32,332 nucleotides of DNA from Escherichia coli. Lineage in GTDB: Bacteria > Pseudomonadota > Gammaproteobacteria > Enterobacterales > Enterobacteriaceae. Below, piece by piece: positions 15,001 to 21,000 of this stretch (positions within the stretch are counted from its first letter, which is position 1; each line of letters opens with the position of its first letter). The stretch is taken from the NCBI RefSeq assembly GCF_003334335.1, contig NZ_QOWQ01000046.1; one strand, 5' to 3'. Position numbers: made by a program.

Positions 15001-18000
15001 TAACTATAAGCTCACCAGAAATAAAAAATAAATACCCTGCTGCCATTTGCCTGGCTCTGGGATTTTTTCTAAGCATTGTAATTTCTGTAATGTTTTGCCT
15101 TGTCAAAAAAATGGTAGATGAATACCTACAAAACTCTGGGCAGTAATAAACAACATTCTGATAGAGAGTGCCTGTATAAAGCTGAAGTGACAATGACCGG
15201 GAAGGGAACCCGTTTTCAGGAATGGATGCCTGTCTTTTTCACTGTAAATATCCTGGCATTGGTAATACCAGGATATTTACAGAAGAGCAGCATAACCATG
15301 ACGGAACGGGGTTAAGTCAGGTTGTCCTAAACGCTATTTTCAACCTCGTATGCCTTCTTCAGGTTTATGTCCAGACTTCATATCTCTCTCAACAATCCTC
15401 AATAATCAGATACACCGCTTTCACCGGGCCATGAACTCCGACGACTTTGATAAGCTCAATATCCGCCGTTGAACTGGGGCCGCTAATGATGTTAATGCAG
15501 GAAGGCATTCGTTCACCGGCCTGCGCTTTCTGATGCAATTTTTCTGCGAGTTGCGCTACACGCGGCAGGATAGTGCTTTTACGCAGGATAAAAAGAGAAT
15601 ATTCCGGGAGCAGGCTCAATGAACGCCCGCGCTCGGCGGCGGAAAAAAGAACCACGCCTCCCGATTCGGTTAAACCATATTCAGCATACACAACACCCAC
15701 TTTAGCCTGCTCTGCCTGCGAGATATTCTCGGCACCTTTCGCCGGATCCCAAACAACGGCATTGCATTCCTGCTGCAAACGTTCGCTAATCCCCAATTCC
15801 TCCAGCCTCGTGTCACCGCTAATCACGACCGACTGATCTCCCAGCTCTTTACACAGACGTATTGCAGCTTCTGCCGCCTTCGCCTCGCTGGTCAGCTCAC
15901 AGCGCGTCAACATAACATCGCTGGCAAACTGAATAAACGCGTCACAGCGCTGCTGTTGGTTAAGTTGGGTAAGCCGCTCGTTAGCATAGTTGTTAAGCGG
16001 CGCATCTTCTGCTTGCGGTTCAAGTCGCAGCGGGCGACCCAGTGCCTGAGCAACGTTATTCAAAAATTCGCCTCGATTATCCATTCTTTTTCTCCTGCGC
16101 CTGATGTTTCTTAAACCAACTACGGAAACTCTCTCCGTCAGCTTCAGGAAGATCGCGTGCTTCCATCCAGTCGCTAATCGCGCCAAATTTGAGTGGTGTT
16201 TTGCCGCCATTGATAAACCAGCTTGCCGCATGAGCACCGGCCATCATCCCGACTTTCCACAATCCTGGATGACTATTGGCATAAGCGAACATTTTTATCG
16301 CCCGTTGCTCTGCTTTTGCGGTGATCCCTTTTTCAGCCATCACCCGACGATGACGCAAAATCAGTTTTGACAGCGGAATACGCACCGGACACACGTTGTC
16401 ACAAGCTGTGCATAAAGAGCAGGCGTAGGGTAAATCTTTAAAATCTTTATAGCCGCCAAGTAGCGGAGAAATCACCGCACCAATTGGCCCTGGATAAATA
16501 GAGCCATATCCATGACCGCCAATATGGCGATATGCCGGACAAGTATTCATACAAGCCCCGCAGCGAATACAGCGCAGCACATCCCGAAATTCAGAGGCCA
16601 GCACCTCAGAACGCCCGTTATCGACAATAACCAGATGAAACTCTTCAGGACCATCAACGTGCCCAGCTTCGCGCGGTCCTGTCAGCCAGGTGTTGTATCC
16701 CGTCAAACGTGCACCAACGGCACTGCGCGCCAGCATGGTGATCAATACATCTACCTCGGCAAACGTGGGGGCAATACGCTCCATTCCCATCACTGCAATA
16801 TGCGTTTTAGGCAGCGTGGTACACATTCGCGCATTACCTTCATTGGTCACCAGGCATACCGAACCGGTCTCTGCCACCGCGAAATTACAGCCGGTAATAC
16901 CTATTTCAGCACTGAGGAAATCTTCGCGGATTTTTTGCCGGATGAATAAGGTCATCGCTTCAGGCGTTTCCGGCCCCTCATAGCCCAGACGTTCGTGTAG
17001 CACTCGACGGATCTGATGGCGATCTTTATGAATTGCCGGGACCACAACATGAGATGGCGGATCTTGATCCAGCTGGAGAATATATTCACCCAGATCGGTT
17101 TCAATCACCTGAATGCCAGCATCCTGCAACACATGATTGACACCAATCTCTTCGGTCACCATCGATTTAGATTTCACCACCTTCCGGGCATTTTTGCGTT
17201 GGGCAACCTGTAAAATGTAGCGGGTAGCGTCTTCTTTGGTTCTTGCAAAATAGACGTGACCGCCGTTTTGCGTCACTTTTTCTGAGAGCTGGTACAGATA
17301 AGCGTCGAGATTACTCAGAACATGATCACGTATCTGGGCGGCCCGATCGCGCCACTCCTCCCAGTGCCCCAATTCATCGACCATTTTTTGCCGATTTGCC
17401 CCAATACGCTGCTGCGCGTTTGCCACCGCTTTGCGCATGATCGGATCTTCAATTTGCTGACGGATGCGTGTCTTAAAATCTGTATTACTGGTTTTGATCG
17501 ACATCTTTATATCCTCAGCGGCTCATCAACACTTCAGCAATATGCATCACTTTGACTTTCTGCCCTTCCCGTTGTAATCGCCCACTGATGTTTAGCAGGC
17601 AACTCACGTCAGCACCAATTAAATACTCAGGGCGGACTTCCATCAGGTGCGCAACCTTTTCTTTCACCATCTCGCCGGATATTTCGGCCATTTTGACCGA
17701 GAACGTGCCGCCAAATCCGCAGCAGGTATCCTGTTCAGCAAAGGTCAACAGCTCCAGTCCACGCACATTTTTCAGCAGCGTAAGTGGCTCGTCCTTCACT
17801 CCCAGCTTACGGGCCAGGCTACAAGATGGGTGATACACCGCTCTCCCTTGCAAACTGGCACCTACATCGACTACCCCTAATTTATTAACAATAAAAGAGG
17901 TGAGATCCTGCATACGCGCGGCAACCTTTGCGGCACGTGATGCCCATTCAGGTTCATCCGCCAGATACGTCGGGTAACTTTTTACGGCATAGGTGCAAGA

Positions 18001-21000
18001 GCCAGCCGGTGAAATAATGGGATCGTCGTTATCCTCCAGTGCGGCGATCAGATTTTTCATCCCTGGAATCGCTTCTTTGATATAACCGCTATTGATCGCA
18101 GGCTGACCGCAGCATCCCTGTTTCTCCGGGAAATTTACGCGACAGCCGAGTTTTTCCAGTAGCAGCACGGAGTCTCGTGCCATTCTTGATTTCAGGGCGT
18201 CACCAATACAGGTGACAAAGAAATTGACATTCACAACTAATACTCCATTACTTCATGCCCATTTATGCCCGATGTTTCCCCCCCACCGGGGGATCAATCA
18301 TCAATAAATATGGCGTTCTTTTTTAATTGGCTAGCAACATACCACCCCTCATTTGTATGACAAATGATAATCTTTCATCCAAACGTCAAATGCAATAACT
18401 AATTTTATTTCTTTCGGCATCGCTCACATTTTATGGGGAAATCGACGATCATTTTTGGCATAAGAAATCCATTTAAAAATGGCTACATCCCTTATACCTA
18501 TTCAGAGCTACTTATTCAGGGGTTATTGAGATATACACTGATGGTGTACAAAAAAATCACCGACAATAATCACGTATCAAGTAATAGTCGGGATTTTATT
18601 TAATTGAAGCAATTTAGTTTGCATTTTTATTTAAAAACTGAGCTAGAGTCCATCAGAAAAAATATATAAAGCCCAAACCACCGTTGGAAATAGAAATAGT
18701 TGAAAGGCTCACAACTCCCGGAATGCGGATTATCTTTGCCCTGATTTCTGGCGGTTTTATTCAGGGTGCAAGCTGTCTGACCCTTTCCCGATATTCTCCC
18801 GGGGTACAACCAAACTCGCGGACAAACGCCTTGTGAAAAGATGATTCACTGGCATAGCCTACTGACTCAGCGATCACCACAACAGGGAGCGTTTCCCGGG
18901 AAAACATCTGGGCCGCTATTTGTAGACGCAACTTTGTTAATACAGCCAGCGGCGTGGTTCCGGAAACATCACGGAAAAGCTGGGCAAAACTTGCCCGGGA
19001 CATGTGAGCGATGCTGGCCAGCGATTCGACGGTCCAGGCGTGTCCTGGCATTTCCAGCATTTGCTGTATTACCGCACCAAGACGTGGATGCAGAAGCAAA
19101 CTGAGAATGTTTTTCTCAGTATTAACCTGTGCAATCCACTCACGCACCGCGAGGGTAAAGAATGTAGCGCAGATCTGGCTACACAGTGCATCCACTCCCG
19201 GCATTGCCGATCTGGATTCCTGTTGTAAAAACGGGATCGCCTCCCTCAGCCAGTTATATTCCACGCTGTGGTTAACCGGTGCTAAAAACAGCGTTTCCGG
19301 CAAAGACGTTAAAAAATAACGCGCCGAATGTTGCAACCGAAGAGTGCCGCAGACAATACAGGTCGATTCATTATCGACATGACTCAGGCGATGAGCTGAA
19401 TTTTGTGGTAGCAGGACCACATTTCCCGGGCGTAATGTAAAAATCTCCCCCGTCGGCATTTCCAGCTTCGCCGCTCCTTGCGTTAACGCATGCCAACGAA
19501 TAACCGATAATTCCCCGGCACCATGTGGAAGCTGCCAGTCACTTCCTAACACGCAATTCTTATCGATCGTTCCTTGTGGAGCGTTAAGCATCAACAAACG
19601 GCTAAGGGCATCCATATCAGACTCCTGAGTGGTTTTTGATTACAAACACCAACAATCTTAGTAAATAACTAATCTAATACCATCAAATAGTTAATCATGA
19701 TTTTTGTTTTGTGATTCTGATTAAGAAAAAGAAAATATCAGACGATAAGACAAAATATCAAGCGTTGTGAAGAAATGTTATTTGCTCTTTTGCGTCTATA
19801 GTCATGATGTCAAATGAACGCGTTTCGACAGGAAATCATCATGAATAAATATCAGGCAGTGATTATTGGTTTTGGCAAGGCTGGAAAAACATTAGCCGTC
19901 ACGCTGGCAAAAGCAGGTTGGCGAGTGGCTCTCATCGAACAATCAAATGCAATGTATGGCGGGACCTGTATTAATATCGGCTGCATCCCAACCAAAACAT
20001 TGGTTCATGACGCACAGCAGCACACAGATTTTGTCCGTGCCATACAGCGTAAAAATGAAGTGGTTAATTTTTTACGTAATAAGAATTTTCATAATCTTGC
20101 GGATATGCCCAATATCGACGTGATCGACGGCCAGGCGGAGTTTATCAATAATCATAGCCTGCGTGTTCATCGGCCTGAGGGAAATCTGGAAATTCATGGC
20201 GAGAAAATTTTTATTAATACCGGTGCACAAACCGTGGTTCCGCCAATTCCTGGAATTACCACCACGCCAGGAGTATATGACAGCACCGGATTACTTAATC
20301 TAAAAGAATTGCCTGGGCATTTAGGTATTTTGGGCGGCGGATATATTGGCGTTGAGTTCGCCTCTATGTTCGCTAATTTTGGCAGCAAGGTAACCATTTT
20401 AGAAGCAGCTTCGCTGTTTTTGCCTCGGGAAGATCGGGATATTGCTGATAATATCGCGACGATTTTACGCGATCAGGGCGTCGATATTATCCTCAATGCC
20501 CATGTGGAGCGAATCAGTCACCATGAAAATCAAGTGCAAGTGCATAGCGAGCACGCCCAACTGGCGGTGGATGCACTGTTAATAGCTTCCGGTCGTCAAC
20601 CGGCTACCGCTTCGTTACATCCAGAAAATGCCGGTATCGCAGTAAACGAGCGCGGGGCAATTGTCGTTGACAAGCGATTACATACCACCGCAGACAATAT
20701 TTGGGCGATGGGAGATGTTACCGGCGGGCTGCAATTTACTTACATATCACTGGATGATTACCGCATTGTACGTGATGAGTTACTGGGTGAAGGCAAACGT
20801 AGTACTGATGATCGGAAAAATGTGCCTTATTCCGTATTTATGACACCGCCCCTGTCCAGGGTTGGTATGACAGAAGAACAAGCCAGAGAGAGTGGTGCTG
20901 ATATTCAGGTGGTGACATTGCCTGTAGCTGCAATTCCGCGTGCCAGAGTGATGAATGATACTCGTGGGGTATTAAAAGCGATTGTTGATAATAAAACCCA

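What the first reader, a model, noticed from the sequence alone, without database searches (positions are those of the whole stretch)
15389..18234. ykgEFG: lutABC-like three-gene oxidoreductase module without an adjacent permease or dedicated regulator
YkgE (CCG-domain), YkgF (two 4Fe-4S clusters) and YkgG (LutC-like) mirror the LutABC lactate-oxidising complex. Here they sit downstream of a 526-bp AT-rich region and next to the reactive-chlorine rcl locus. This raises the question of whether they act in lactate or hydroxy-acid oxidation under oxidative stress rather than in ordinary catabolism.
Basis: partly seen in the sequence, partly recalled or inferred. Interest (0 to 1): 0.35.

Follow-up and report, generated by a model that had tools for sequence, protein, structure and literature searches.

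The report
E. coli ykgEFG L-lactate dehydrogenase operon
This is the already studied E. coli K-12 ykgEFG operon, an iron-sulfur L-lactate dehydrogenase repressed by the distant regulator YieP; it has no neighbouring lactate transporter because that gene and a D-lactate dehydrogenase gene were deleted, and nothing links it to the chlorine-stress genes next door.

Summary
The window is E. coli K-12 DNA, 100% identical to MG1655. ykgE, ykgF and ykgG lie on the minus strand at 17515-18234, 16077-17504 and 15389-16084. They follow a 526-bp spacer of 36% GC, and rclR is the next gene upstream. The domains match LutABC/LldEFG.

Published work already shows an L-lactate-specific fitness defect of a ykgEFG deletion under anaerobic nitrate respiration. 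It also shows about tenfold repression by the GntR/FadR regulator YieP, and an FNR input. An exact YieP consensus site lies at 18351-18365, so a regulator exists but is encoded elsewhere.

None of 14 related loci in other Enterobacterales, Aeromonas, and E. coli islands or mobile elements has rcl genes nearby. Most carry a lactate permease and/or dld beside the operon.

The one new point is that the AT-rich spacer is a relic of an lldP<>dld-ykgEFG island. It keeps a 25-codon lldP fragment, the old dld promoter and its YieP operator, in the same order as in intact islands. About 2% of E. coli genomes carry such an island as a second copy.

I found no evidence for a link to HOCl. Verdict: already known, low interest.

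The parts
17515..18234 (-). ykgE (lutA/lldE-type subunit), 239 aa, GTG start. It has two CCG cysteine-rich domains of the HdrB type, with CCG motifs at residues 41 and 171.
16077..17504 (-). ykgF (lutB/lldF-type subunit), 475 aa. Domains are LUD, a 4Fe-4S dicluster (CIRCGACMNTCP at 312, CSLCTACDNVCP at 362) and LutB_C.
   Evidence: (TIGR00273 778.7 bits, cut-off 444.8)
15389..16084 (-). ykgG (lutC/lldG-type subunit), 231 aa, LUD domain. Its start overlaps the ykgF stop by 8 nt, which suggests translational coupling.
18235..18760 (.). 526-bp AT-rich spacer (36.1% GC) between rclR and ykgE. It is a mosaic relic of an lldP<>dld intergenic region plus gene fragments.
18351..18365 (.). YieP operator. 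It matches the published consensus atTTGTaTGAcaAAT exactly and reads ATTTGTCATACAAAT on the ykgE strand, 116 nt upstream of the ykgE start.
   Evidence: motif from PMC7642389; YieP bound at this promoter in PMC7567609; conserved in Proteus, Citrobacter, Pluralibacter and E. coli islands
18367..18395 (-). Candidate ykgE promoter: -35 TTGCAT (18395-18390), a 17-nt spacer, and -10 GATTAT (18372-18367). Both hexamers and the spacer length are conserved against the Citrobacter dld promoter while the spacer sequence differs. The position is inferred; no transcription start was mapped here.
   Evidence: consistent with the Reg-Seq description of a repressor site downstream of the RNAP site
18349..18432 (-). 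Block homologous to the dld promoter region of intact islands (75-79% over 87 nt). It contains the promoter, the YieP site and a conserved upstream block, AAAATGTGAGCGATGCCGAAAG, with a TGTGA half-site at 18413-18428.
18699..18773 (+). lldP (lactate permease) relic. The 25 codons VERLTTPGMRIIFALISGGFIQGAS are 80% identical to residues 334-358 of the island LldP. Its last 13 nt overlap, antisense, the 3' end of rclR.
18595..18666 (-). Relic of the lldP-proximal part of the lldP-dld intergenic region (74-87% identity to islands L012 and L013).

Best explanation
ykgEFG encodes the E. coli member of the LutABC/LldEFG family, an NAD-independent, iron-sulfur, respiratory L-lactate dehydrogenase that oxidises L-lactate to pyruvate.

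Shown here or in the literature:
- The three proteins have the family's domain set.
- The operon gives an L-lactate-specific advantage under anaerobic nitrate respiration.
- Transcription is repressed by YieP at an operator that begins 1 nt after the likely -10 element.
- Reg-Seq assigns an FNR input.

Inferred:
- YkgF and YkgG (LUD domains) form the substrate side.
- Electrons pass through the two [4Fe-4S] clusters of YkgF to the HdrB-like CCG clusters of YkgE, and then to the quinone pool.
- None of the three proteins has a predicted transmembrane helix, so the complex would be peripheral.

The K-12 locus lacks a permease because it is a reduced form of an lldP<>dld-ykgEFG lactate island. 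dld and most of lldP were deleted, and the former dld promoter with its YieP operator now drives ykgEFG. Lactate uptake must then depend on transporters encoded elsewhere, LldP or GlcA (from established knowledge, not tested here). The position beside rcl is a rearrangement junction, not a functional link.
For: Identity and annotation.

Family assignment:
- Domains.
- LutB equivalog above cut-off.
- YkgF and YkgE align end to end to the fused LdhH model, at model positions 2-464 and 468-705.
- The nearest solved relatives are HdrB and HdrC.

Published function:
- L-lactate plus nitrate phenotype: PMC9701030.
- Strains built to stop lactate or 2,4-dihydroxybutyrate oxidation delete ykgF or ykgEFG together with lldD and dld.

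Regulation:
- YieP repression about tenfold, with ChIP-exo motif: PMC7642389.
- YieP captured at the ykgE promoter, knockout confirmed, and an FNR input: PMC7567609.
- Exact consensus at 18351-18365.
- All six sites with at most 2 mismatches in 224 kb of related loci (0.4 expected by chance) lie just upstream of the first gene of (dld-)ykgEFG.

Relic:
- Three to four colinear blastn blocks match Citrobacter and two E. coli islands, with E-values down to 2e-13.
- The lldP fragment is 80% identical over 25 aa.
- The promoter hexamers are conserved.

Other support:
- lldP and/or dld adjoin the operon in 11 of 14 related loci, and rcl in none.
- The coding sequences are under purifying selection (dN/dS 0.03-0.10 against island copies).
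- The region is present in about 5090 of 5426 E. coli genomes.
Against: - The published phenotype comes from strain MP1, in competition assays under one condition. The same study found no gut fitness defect.
- One paper states that there is no L-lactate catabolism phenotype in K-12, citing Chai 2009. I could not read Chai 2009.
- Overexpressing ykgEFG did not change lactate titres.
- No purified enzyme, cofactor analysis, electron acceptor or complex structure is available for the E. coli proteins, and there is no PDB entry for any LutABC complex.
- I could not locate an FNR site by consensus; no site in the spacer has 2 or fewer mismatches.
- The YieP ligand is unknown. 3-hydroxypropionate did not relieve repression of ykgEFG.
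Confidence: 0.85

Rival explanations
1. One reading: YkgEFG works in lactate or hydroxy-acid oxidation as part of the response to reactive chlorine or oxidative stress, coupled to the neighbouring rcl locus, for example by read-through from rclR or by RclR control.
For: rclR lies directly upstream on the same strand. The consensus scan found no terminator in the 526-bp spacer. Only a weak hairpin followed by a U-run lies at about 18553-18597, so read-through cannot be excluded.
Against: - No rclR or rclA homologue lies within 6-8 kb of ykgEFG in any of the 14 related loci.
- The junction with rclR falls inside a truncated lldP fragment, so it is a rearrangement scar.
- The operon has its own promoter, controlled by YieP and FNR.
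- A full-text search for ykgE with hypochlor* found no induction data.
- YkgE aggregates in H2O2-treated cells, and enzymes rich in Fe-S clusters are generally sensitive to oxidants (established knowledge).
- The known phenotype is anaerobic.
Confidence: 0.04
2. YkgEFG is mainly a broad-specificity 2-hydroxy-acid oxidoreductase, and L-lactate is only one substrate. Its YieP-controlled role would then concern other C3-C4 hydroxy acids, alongside the co-regulated YohJK transporter.
For: - A 2026 paper cites Malfoy et al. 2024 for oxidation of 2,4-dihydroxybutyrate by LldD, Dld and YkgEFG. It shows that the effect disappears in the triple mutant.
- YieP co-represses yohJK, which is implicated in 3-hydroxypropionate tolerance and export.
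Against: - The triple mutant does not show how much YkgEFG itself contributes.
- The phenotype is specific to L-lactate and absent with D-lactate.
- Orthologous operons sit next to lactate permease and D-lactate dehydrogenase genes.
- Deleting ykgEFG did not affect 3-HP tolerance, which depended on yohJK.
Confidence: 0.12
3. The K-12 operon is a largely silent leftover. Having lost its permease and dld partner, and being tightly repressed, it contributes nothing under natural conditions.
For: - lldP and dld have been lost.
- YieP represses the operon about tenfold under all tested conditions.
- There is no gut colonisation phenotype.
- A paper reports no K-12 lactate phenotype.
Against: - All three ORFs are intact and under strong purifying selection, with dN/dS 0.03-0.10 at dS about 1.
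- The locus is kept in about 94% of complete E. coli genomes.
- There is a measurable L-lactate plus nitrate fitness effect in MP1.
Confidence: 0.08

Closest known systems
LutABC of Bacillus subtilis, LldEFG of Shewanella oneidensis, and HP0137-0139 of Helicobacter pylori (three-subunit Fe-S L-lactate dehydrogenases)
   Same: The gene order and domain set are the same: two CCG domains; LUD plus a 4Fe-4S dicluster plus LutB_C; and LUD. YkgF passes the LutB/LldF equivalog model. The published phenotype is L-lactate-specific and respiratory.
   Different: The K-12 locus has no adjacent permease and no adjacent GntR-type regulator. Its repressor YieP is encoded elsewhere, and the YieP ligand is unknown. 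E. coli also has LldD as its main aerobic L-lactate dehydrogenase, so the YkgEFG phenotype appeared only with nitrate under anaerobiosis.
The lldP<>dld-ykgEFG lactate-utilisation island of Citrobacter freundii, of E. coli genomic islands, and of plasmids such as pFec10
   Same: The proteins are orthologous: YkgE about 94-95%, YkgF about 93-95% and YkgG about 84-86% identical. The YieP operator lies in the same place and orientation. The K-12 spacer shares colinear remnants with the island.
   Different: K-12 has lost dld (about 1.7 kb) and all but 25 codons of lldP. The intact island occurs as a second, mobile copy in 109 of 5426 E. coli genomes; the plasmid version was described in PMC7984374.
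LdhH (NF045670), the fused large subunit of a quinone-dependent L-lactate dehydrogenase
   Same: YkgF aligns to model positions 2-464 and YkgE to positions 468-705. The two E. coli proteins therefore correspond to one fused polypeptide elsewhere, which supports a physical complex.
   Different: In E. coli the two parts are separate genes. Both scores (426 and 184 bits) fall below the model's 800-bit cut-off, as expected for the separate halves.
HdrB and HdrC of heterodisulfide reductase
   Same: These are the only solved relatives of the YkgE CCG domains and of the YkgF dicluster segment.
   Different: The matches are weak (E about 1e-4). Hdr reduces a heterodisulfide and has no LUD domain. 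The similarity suggests a cofactor type, not a function.

Membership tests
LutABC/LldEFG L-lactate dehydrogenase | Three co-transcribed genes in the order A-B-C, with the domain set CCGx2 / LUD + 4Fe-4S dicluster + LutB_C / LUD | tested here: met
   The gaps and overlaps between genes are +10 nt and -8 nt.
LutABC/LldEFG L-lactate dehydrogenase | The B subunit passes the curated LutB/LldF equivalog model TIGR00273 | tested here: met
   778.7 bits against a cut-off of 444.8.
LutABC/LldEFG L-lactate dehydrogenase | Cysteine motifs for Fe-S clusters: two CX2CX2CX3CP in the B subunit and two CCG motifs in the A subunit | tested here: met
LutABC/LldEFG L-lactate dehydrogenase | L-lactate-specific oxidation or growth phenotype | not testable with these tools
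   Literature only. A ykgEFG deletion in E. coli MP1 is less fit with L-lactate plus nitrate, but not with D-lactate (PMC9701030).
LutABC/LldEFG L-lactate dehydrogenase | Genomic linkage to a lactate permease | tested here: inconclusive
   There is no intact permease in the window, only a 25-codon lldP relic at 18699-18773. Orthologous operons in 10 of 14 related loci have an adjacent Lactate_perm gene.
LutABC/LldEFG L-lactate dehydrogenase | Control by a GntR/FadR-type repressor (LutR/LldR-like) | tested here: met
   An exact YieP operator lies at 18351-18365. YieP belongs to the FadR subfamily of GntR regulators (PMC11340327); its best NCBIfam matches are NanR, LldR and PdhR. Repression is published. 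The regulator gene is not adjacent in E. coli. In Proteus it lies across an rrn operon from ykgEFG.
RclR regulon / reactive-chlorine response | Conserved linkage with rclR-rclABC in other genomes | tested here: not met
   tblastn with RclR and RclA found no orthologue in any of the 14 related loci. The only hit is a 27%-identical AraC-type HTH in Kosakonia.
RclR regulon / reactive-chlorine response | HOCl- and RclR-dependent induction | not testable with these tools
   A full-text search for ykgE with hypochlor* gave no expression data. Supplementary tables of HOCl transcriptome studies were not searched.

The most novel reading that the evidence does not exclude
The K-12 rclR-ykgE spacer is the scar of an ancestral lldP<>dld-ykgEFG lactate island, and YieP is that island's conserved trans-acting sensor. 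Its operator is kept upstream of the operon in Escherichia, Citrobacter, Pluralibacter and Proteus, and in Proteus yieP lies just across an rrn operon from ykgEFG. On this reading the unknown YieP ligand would be a lactate- or pyruvate-type C3 acid. The co-repressed YohJK (LrgAB-type) would be the matching carboxylate transporter that replaces the lost permease.
Probability: 0.3. Interest if true: 0.4.

Novelty: already known. Interest (0 to 1): 0.15.

Why it matters
The operon's identity, substrate, physiological condition and repressor are all published, so the finding opens no new question. The added observations are small.
- They explain why the K-12 locus looks incomplete: the permease and dld genes were deleted and left recognisable remnants.
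- They show that adjacency to rcl is a rearrangement junction.
- They single out YieP, whose ligand is unknown, as the conserved regulator of this lactate module across several enterobacterial genera.

That last point gives a concrete starting place for finding the YieP ligand. It may also help explain why lactate-using gut E. coli sometimes acquire a second, complete island.

Tried and rejected
- **FNR site.** A consensus scan (TTGATN4ATCAA) found no site with 2 or fewer mismatches in the spacer, and only poor 3-mismatch matches. I could not place the FNR input reported by Reg-Seq.
- **Structured RNA.** Rfam at E<=0.1 over 15000-19900 gave nothing. The putative 5' UTR and the region downstream of rclR fold no better than shuffled sequence, z = -0.36 for both.
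- **Terminator.** The scan found no convincing terminator between rclR and ykgE, or after ykgG.
- **YkgG in NCBIfam.** No hit; Pfam LUD was needed.
- **Solved structures.** PDB has no LutABC complex, only HdrB, HdrC and the LUD-domain protein 2G40. I therefore did not run structure prediction, because it would not change the verdict.
- **dld remnant.** tblastn with island Dld against the spacer gave only chance-level matches, so the dld deletion appears complete.
- **Chai et al. 2009 (PMC2668416).** The paper is not held, so I could not check its reported lack of a K-12 phenotype directly.
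Full report
**What is there.** The window is E. coli K-12 DNA. The stretch 14200-19700 is 100% identical to MG1655, and most of it is present in 5090 of 5426 complete E. coli genomes. RefSeq annotation of the matching MG1655 record gives this order in window orientation: betI, betB, betA, ykgH on the plus strand; ykgG, ykgF, ykgE, rclR on the minus strand; then rclA, rclB, rclC on the plus strand.

The ORF list places ykgE at 17515-18234, ykgF at 16077-17504 and ykgG at 15389-16084, all on the minus strand. ykgG overlaps the ykgF stop by 8 nt. The spacer between the rclR stop codon and the ykgE start is 18235-18760. That is exactly 526 bp, at 36.1% GC against 50.8% for the operon.

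**What the proteins are.**
- Pfam finds two CCG domains in YkgE, LUD plus a 4Fe-4S dicluster plus LutB_C in YkgF, and LUD in YkgG.
- YkgF scores 778.7 bits on the curated LutB/LldF equivalog TIGR00273, whose cut-off is 444.8.
- YkgF aligns to positions 2-464 of the fused LdhH model and YkgE to positions 468-705. This is what one expects of two subunits that act as one unit.
- YkgF has two CX2CX2CX3CP motifs and YkgE has two CCG motifs. None of the three proteins has a hydrophobic stretch long enough for a membrane helix.
- No LutABC complex has been solved. The nearest solved relatives are HdrB and HdrC of heterodisulfide reductase and the LUD-domain protein 2G40.
- The electron path from the LUD domains through the YkgF clusters and the YkgE CCG clusters to quinone is an inference from these relationships. 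It has not been shown.

**What is already published.**
- Taylor et al. 2022 made a clean ykgEFG deletion in E. coli MP1. The mutant was as fit as wild type anaerobically, but lost fitness when nitrate and L-lactate were both present. D-lactate had no such effect. The authors concluded that YkgEFG is a respiratory L-lactate dehydrogenase. The mutant showed no defect in mouse colitis models (PMC9701030).
- Nguyen-Vo et al. 2020 showed by RNA-seq, qPCR and ChIP-exo that the regulator YieP represses ykgEFG and yohJK by about tenfold. They reported the motif atTTGTaTGAcaAAT (PMC7642389). A later paper places YieP in the FadR subfamily of GntR regulators (PMC11340327).
- The Reg-Seq study dissected the ykgE promoter. 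It captured YieP on a repressor site just downstream of the RNA polymerase site, confirmed this with a knockout, and assigned a second input to FNR (PMC7567609).
- Engineering papers delete ykgF or ykgEFG together with lldD and dld to stop lactate or 2,4-dihydroxybutyrate oxidation.
- A Mol Microbiol paper describes a plasmid-borne lctP-dld-ykgEFG cluster. It states, citing Chai 2009, that ykgEFG gives no lactate phenotype in K-12 (PMC7984374). I could not read Chai 2009.

**The regulator in the sequence.** An exact match to the published YieP consensus lies at 18351-18365, 116 nt upstream of the ykgE start. One base upstream of it is a plausible promoter: -35 TTGCAT at 18395-18390, a 17-nt spacer, and -10 GATTAT at 18372-18367. 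When the region is aligned with the Citrobacter dld promoter, both hexamers and the spacer length are conserved while the spacer sequence differs. This fits the Reg-Seq description. The transcription start itself was not determined here.

**Does the neighbourhood mean anything?** I fetched 14 related loci:
- Citrobacter freundii, two copies of one locus;
- Pluralibacter, Pectobacterium and Proteus;
- a divergent mobile E. coli variant, two loci;
- Edwardsiella and Kosakonia;
- two E. coli genomic islands;
- an Intestinirhabdus-like contig, Aeromonas and Dickeya.

tblastn with RclR and RclA found no orthologue in any of them. Ten loci carry a lactate permease gene immediately upstream. Five carry a membrane D-lactate dehydrogenase gene (dld) next to the operon: the two Citrobacter copies, both E. 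coli islands, and Aeromonas. The conserved partners of this operon are therefore lactate genes, and the rcl adjacency was seen only at the native E. coli locus among the loci examined.

**The spacer is a relic.** I compared the K-12 spacer with intact lldP<>dld-ykgEFG islands by blastn. The comparison gives colinear blocks in the same order and orientation against all three references, Citrobacter L002 and the E. coli islands L012 and L013.

| Window block | Matches in the intact island | Detail |
|---|---|---|
| 18769-18698 | Interior of lldP | E down to 3.6e-10 |
| 18666-18595 | lldP-proximal part of the intergenic region | 74-87% identity to L012 and L013; only a 30-nt core (18633-18605) matches Citrobacter |
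| 18432-18349 | dld promoter with its YieP site | 75-79% over 87 nt, E down to 2e-13 |
| 18265 (or 18256) onward | Last 20-30 nt before ykgE and the operon itself | about 83% identity |

At the protein level, 18699-18773 on the plus strand reads VERLTTPGMRIIFALISGGFIQGAS. This is 80% identical to residues 334-358 of the island LldP. No trace of dld remains.

The K-12 locus has therefore lost dld and all but 25 codons of lldP, and the former dld promoter now drives ykgEFG. The end of the lldP fragment overlaps, antisense, the last four codons and the stop codon of rclR. The rcl genes thus abut a truncation point.

The enzyme genes themselves are well preserved. dN/dS against the island copies is 0.03 for ykgE and ykgF and 0.08-0.10 for ykgG, at dS about 1.

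**YieP as the conserved regulator.** I scanned all 224 kb of related loci for the 15-mer with at most two mismatches. This gave six hits against 0.4 expected by chance. Every hit lies just upstream of the first gene of (dld-)ykgEFG, in the same orientation:
- Proteus, exact match;
- Citrobacter, one mismatch, in both copies;
- Pluralibacter, one mismatch;
- the two E. coli islands, one and two mismatches.

Loci with the co-directional lldP-ykgEFG arrangement (Pectobacterium, Dickeya, Edwardsiella and others) lack the site. In Proteus mirabilis a YieP orthologue (51% identity) and an hsrA-like gene lie across a complete rrn operon from ykgEFG. In E. coli, yieP-hsrA lies beside rrnC.

The best NCBIfam matches of YieP are NanR, LldR and PdhR. 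Its ligand is unknown in the literature I could read. 3-hydroxypropionate did not relieve repression of ykgEFG.

**The chlorine-stress idea.** Nothing supports it.
- The adjacency is not conserved, and it lies at a deletion scar.
- The operon has its own promoter, controlled by YieP and FNR.
- The known phenotype is anaerobic.
- A full-text search for ykgE with hypochlor* returned no expression data. Its one relevant hit lists YkgE among proteins that aggregate after H2O2 treatment.

Read-through from rclR cannot be ruled out from sequence alone. No clear terminator was found in the spacer, only a weak hairpin with a U-run near 18553-18597.

**Verdict.** The LutABC assignment is right and already established experimentally. 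The stress-linked interpretation is unsupported. The missing permease is explained by gene loss, and the missing regulator by a known trans-acting repressor. The relic structure of the spacer and the conservation of the YieP operator across genera are minor additions that I did not find described in the papers searched. Novelty: already known. Interest: low.

Noticed in passing
window 18761-18775, the 3' end of rclR on the minus strand, overlapping the lldP relic at 18699-18773 (+): The last four codons and the stop codon of rclR (QLAP*) are encoded antisense to the end of the lldP remnant (...GFIQGAS). The present C-terminus of RclR therefore seems to sit on the rearrangement junction.
   Followed up: partly
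L012 (NZ_CP081762.1, island at tRNA-Phe), L013 (NZ_CP126926.1), and plasmid hits H16-H27: 109 of 5426 complete E. coli genomes carry an intact lldP<>dld-ykgEFG island as a second copy. It lies on IS-flanked chromosomal islands (91 places) or on plasmids (19 places). Its ykgEFG genes are about 83% nt and about 94% aa identical to the K-12 genes.
   Followed up: partly
L007 and L008 (E. coli contigs; YkgF variant P0068, 83% aa identity): A third, more divergent lldP-ykgEFG module, with co-directional genes and no dld. It lies in IS66, plasmid-like and restriction-modification contexts in some E. coli, and it has no YieP site.
   Followed up: no
L006 (Proteus mirabilis CP034091.1) 1-10115: The order is hsrA-like, then yieP orthologue, then a full rrn operon (16S, tRNA, 23S, 5S), then ykgEFG with an exact YieP operator at 7192-7206. 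In E. coli, yieP-hsrA also lies beside an rrn operon (rrnC, L011), but hdfR is on the far side there.
   Followed up: partly
window 18407-18435 (minus strand): The block AAAATGTGAGCGATGCCGAAAGAAATAAA is almost identical between E. coli and the Citrobacter dld promoter. It contains a TGTGA half-site centred about 60 nt upstream of the inferred transcription start. It may be a CRP- or FNR-type activator site; no full consensus is present.
   Followed up: partly
window 18278-18292 (minus strand): A CCCCCGGTGGGGGGG hairpin lies in the putative 5' UTR of ykgE, in the segment with no counterpart in intact islands (the dld deletion joint). The region folds no better than shuffled sequence, and there is no Rfam match.
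   Followed up: partly
H1 and H2 (E. coli VR50 and CEA106S), region matching window 14200-19700: The match is split into two pieces by an IS3-family transposase inserted in this region in these strains.
   Followed up: no
L010 (Kosakonia) 3410-4354 and 6041-7189; L005 (Pectobacterium) 1340-2494: A cyclopropane-fatty-acid-synthase-like gene (CMAS) lies near ykgEFG in both Kosakonia and Pectobacterium. Kosakonia also has an NAD-type Ldh nearby. In E. coli, YieP is reported to control cfa indirectly through RydC (PMC11340327). This may be coincidence.
   Followed up: no
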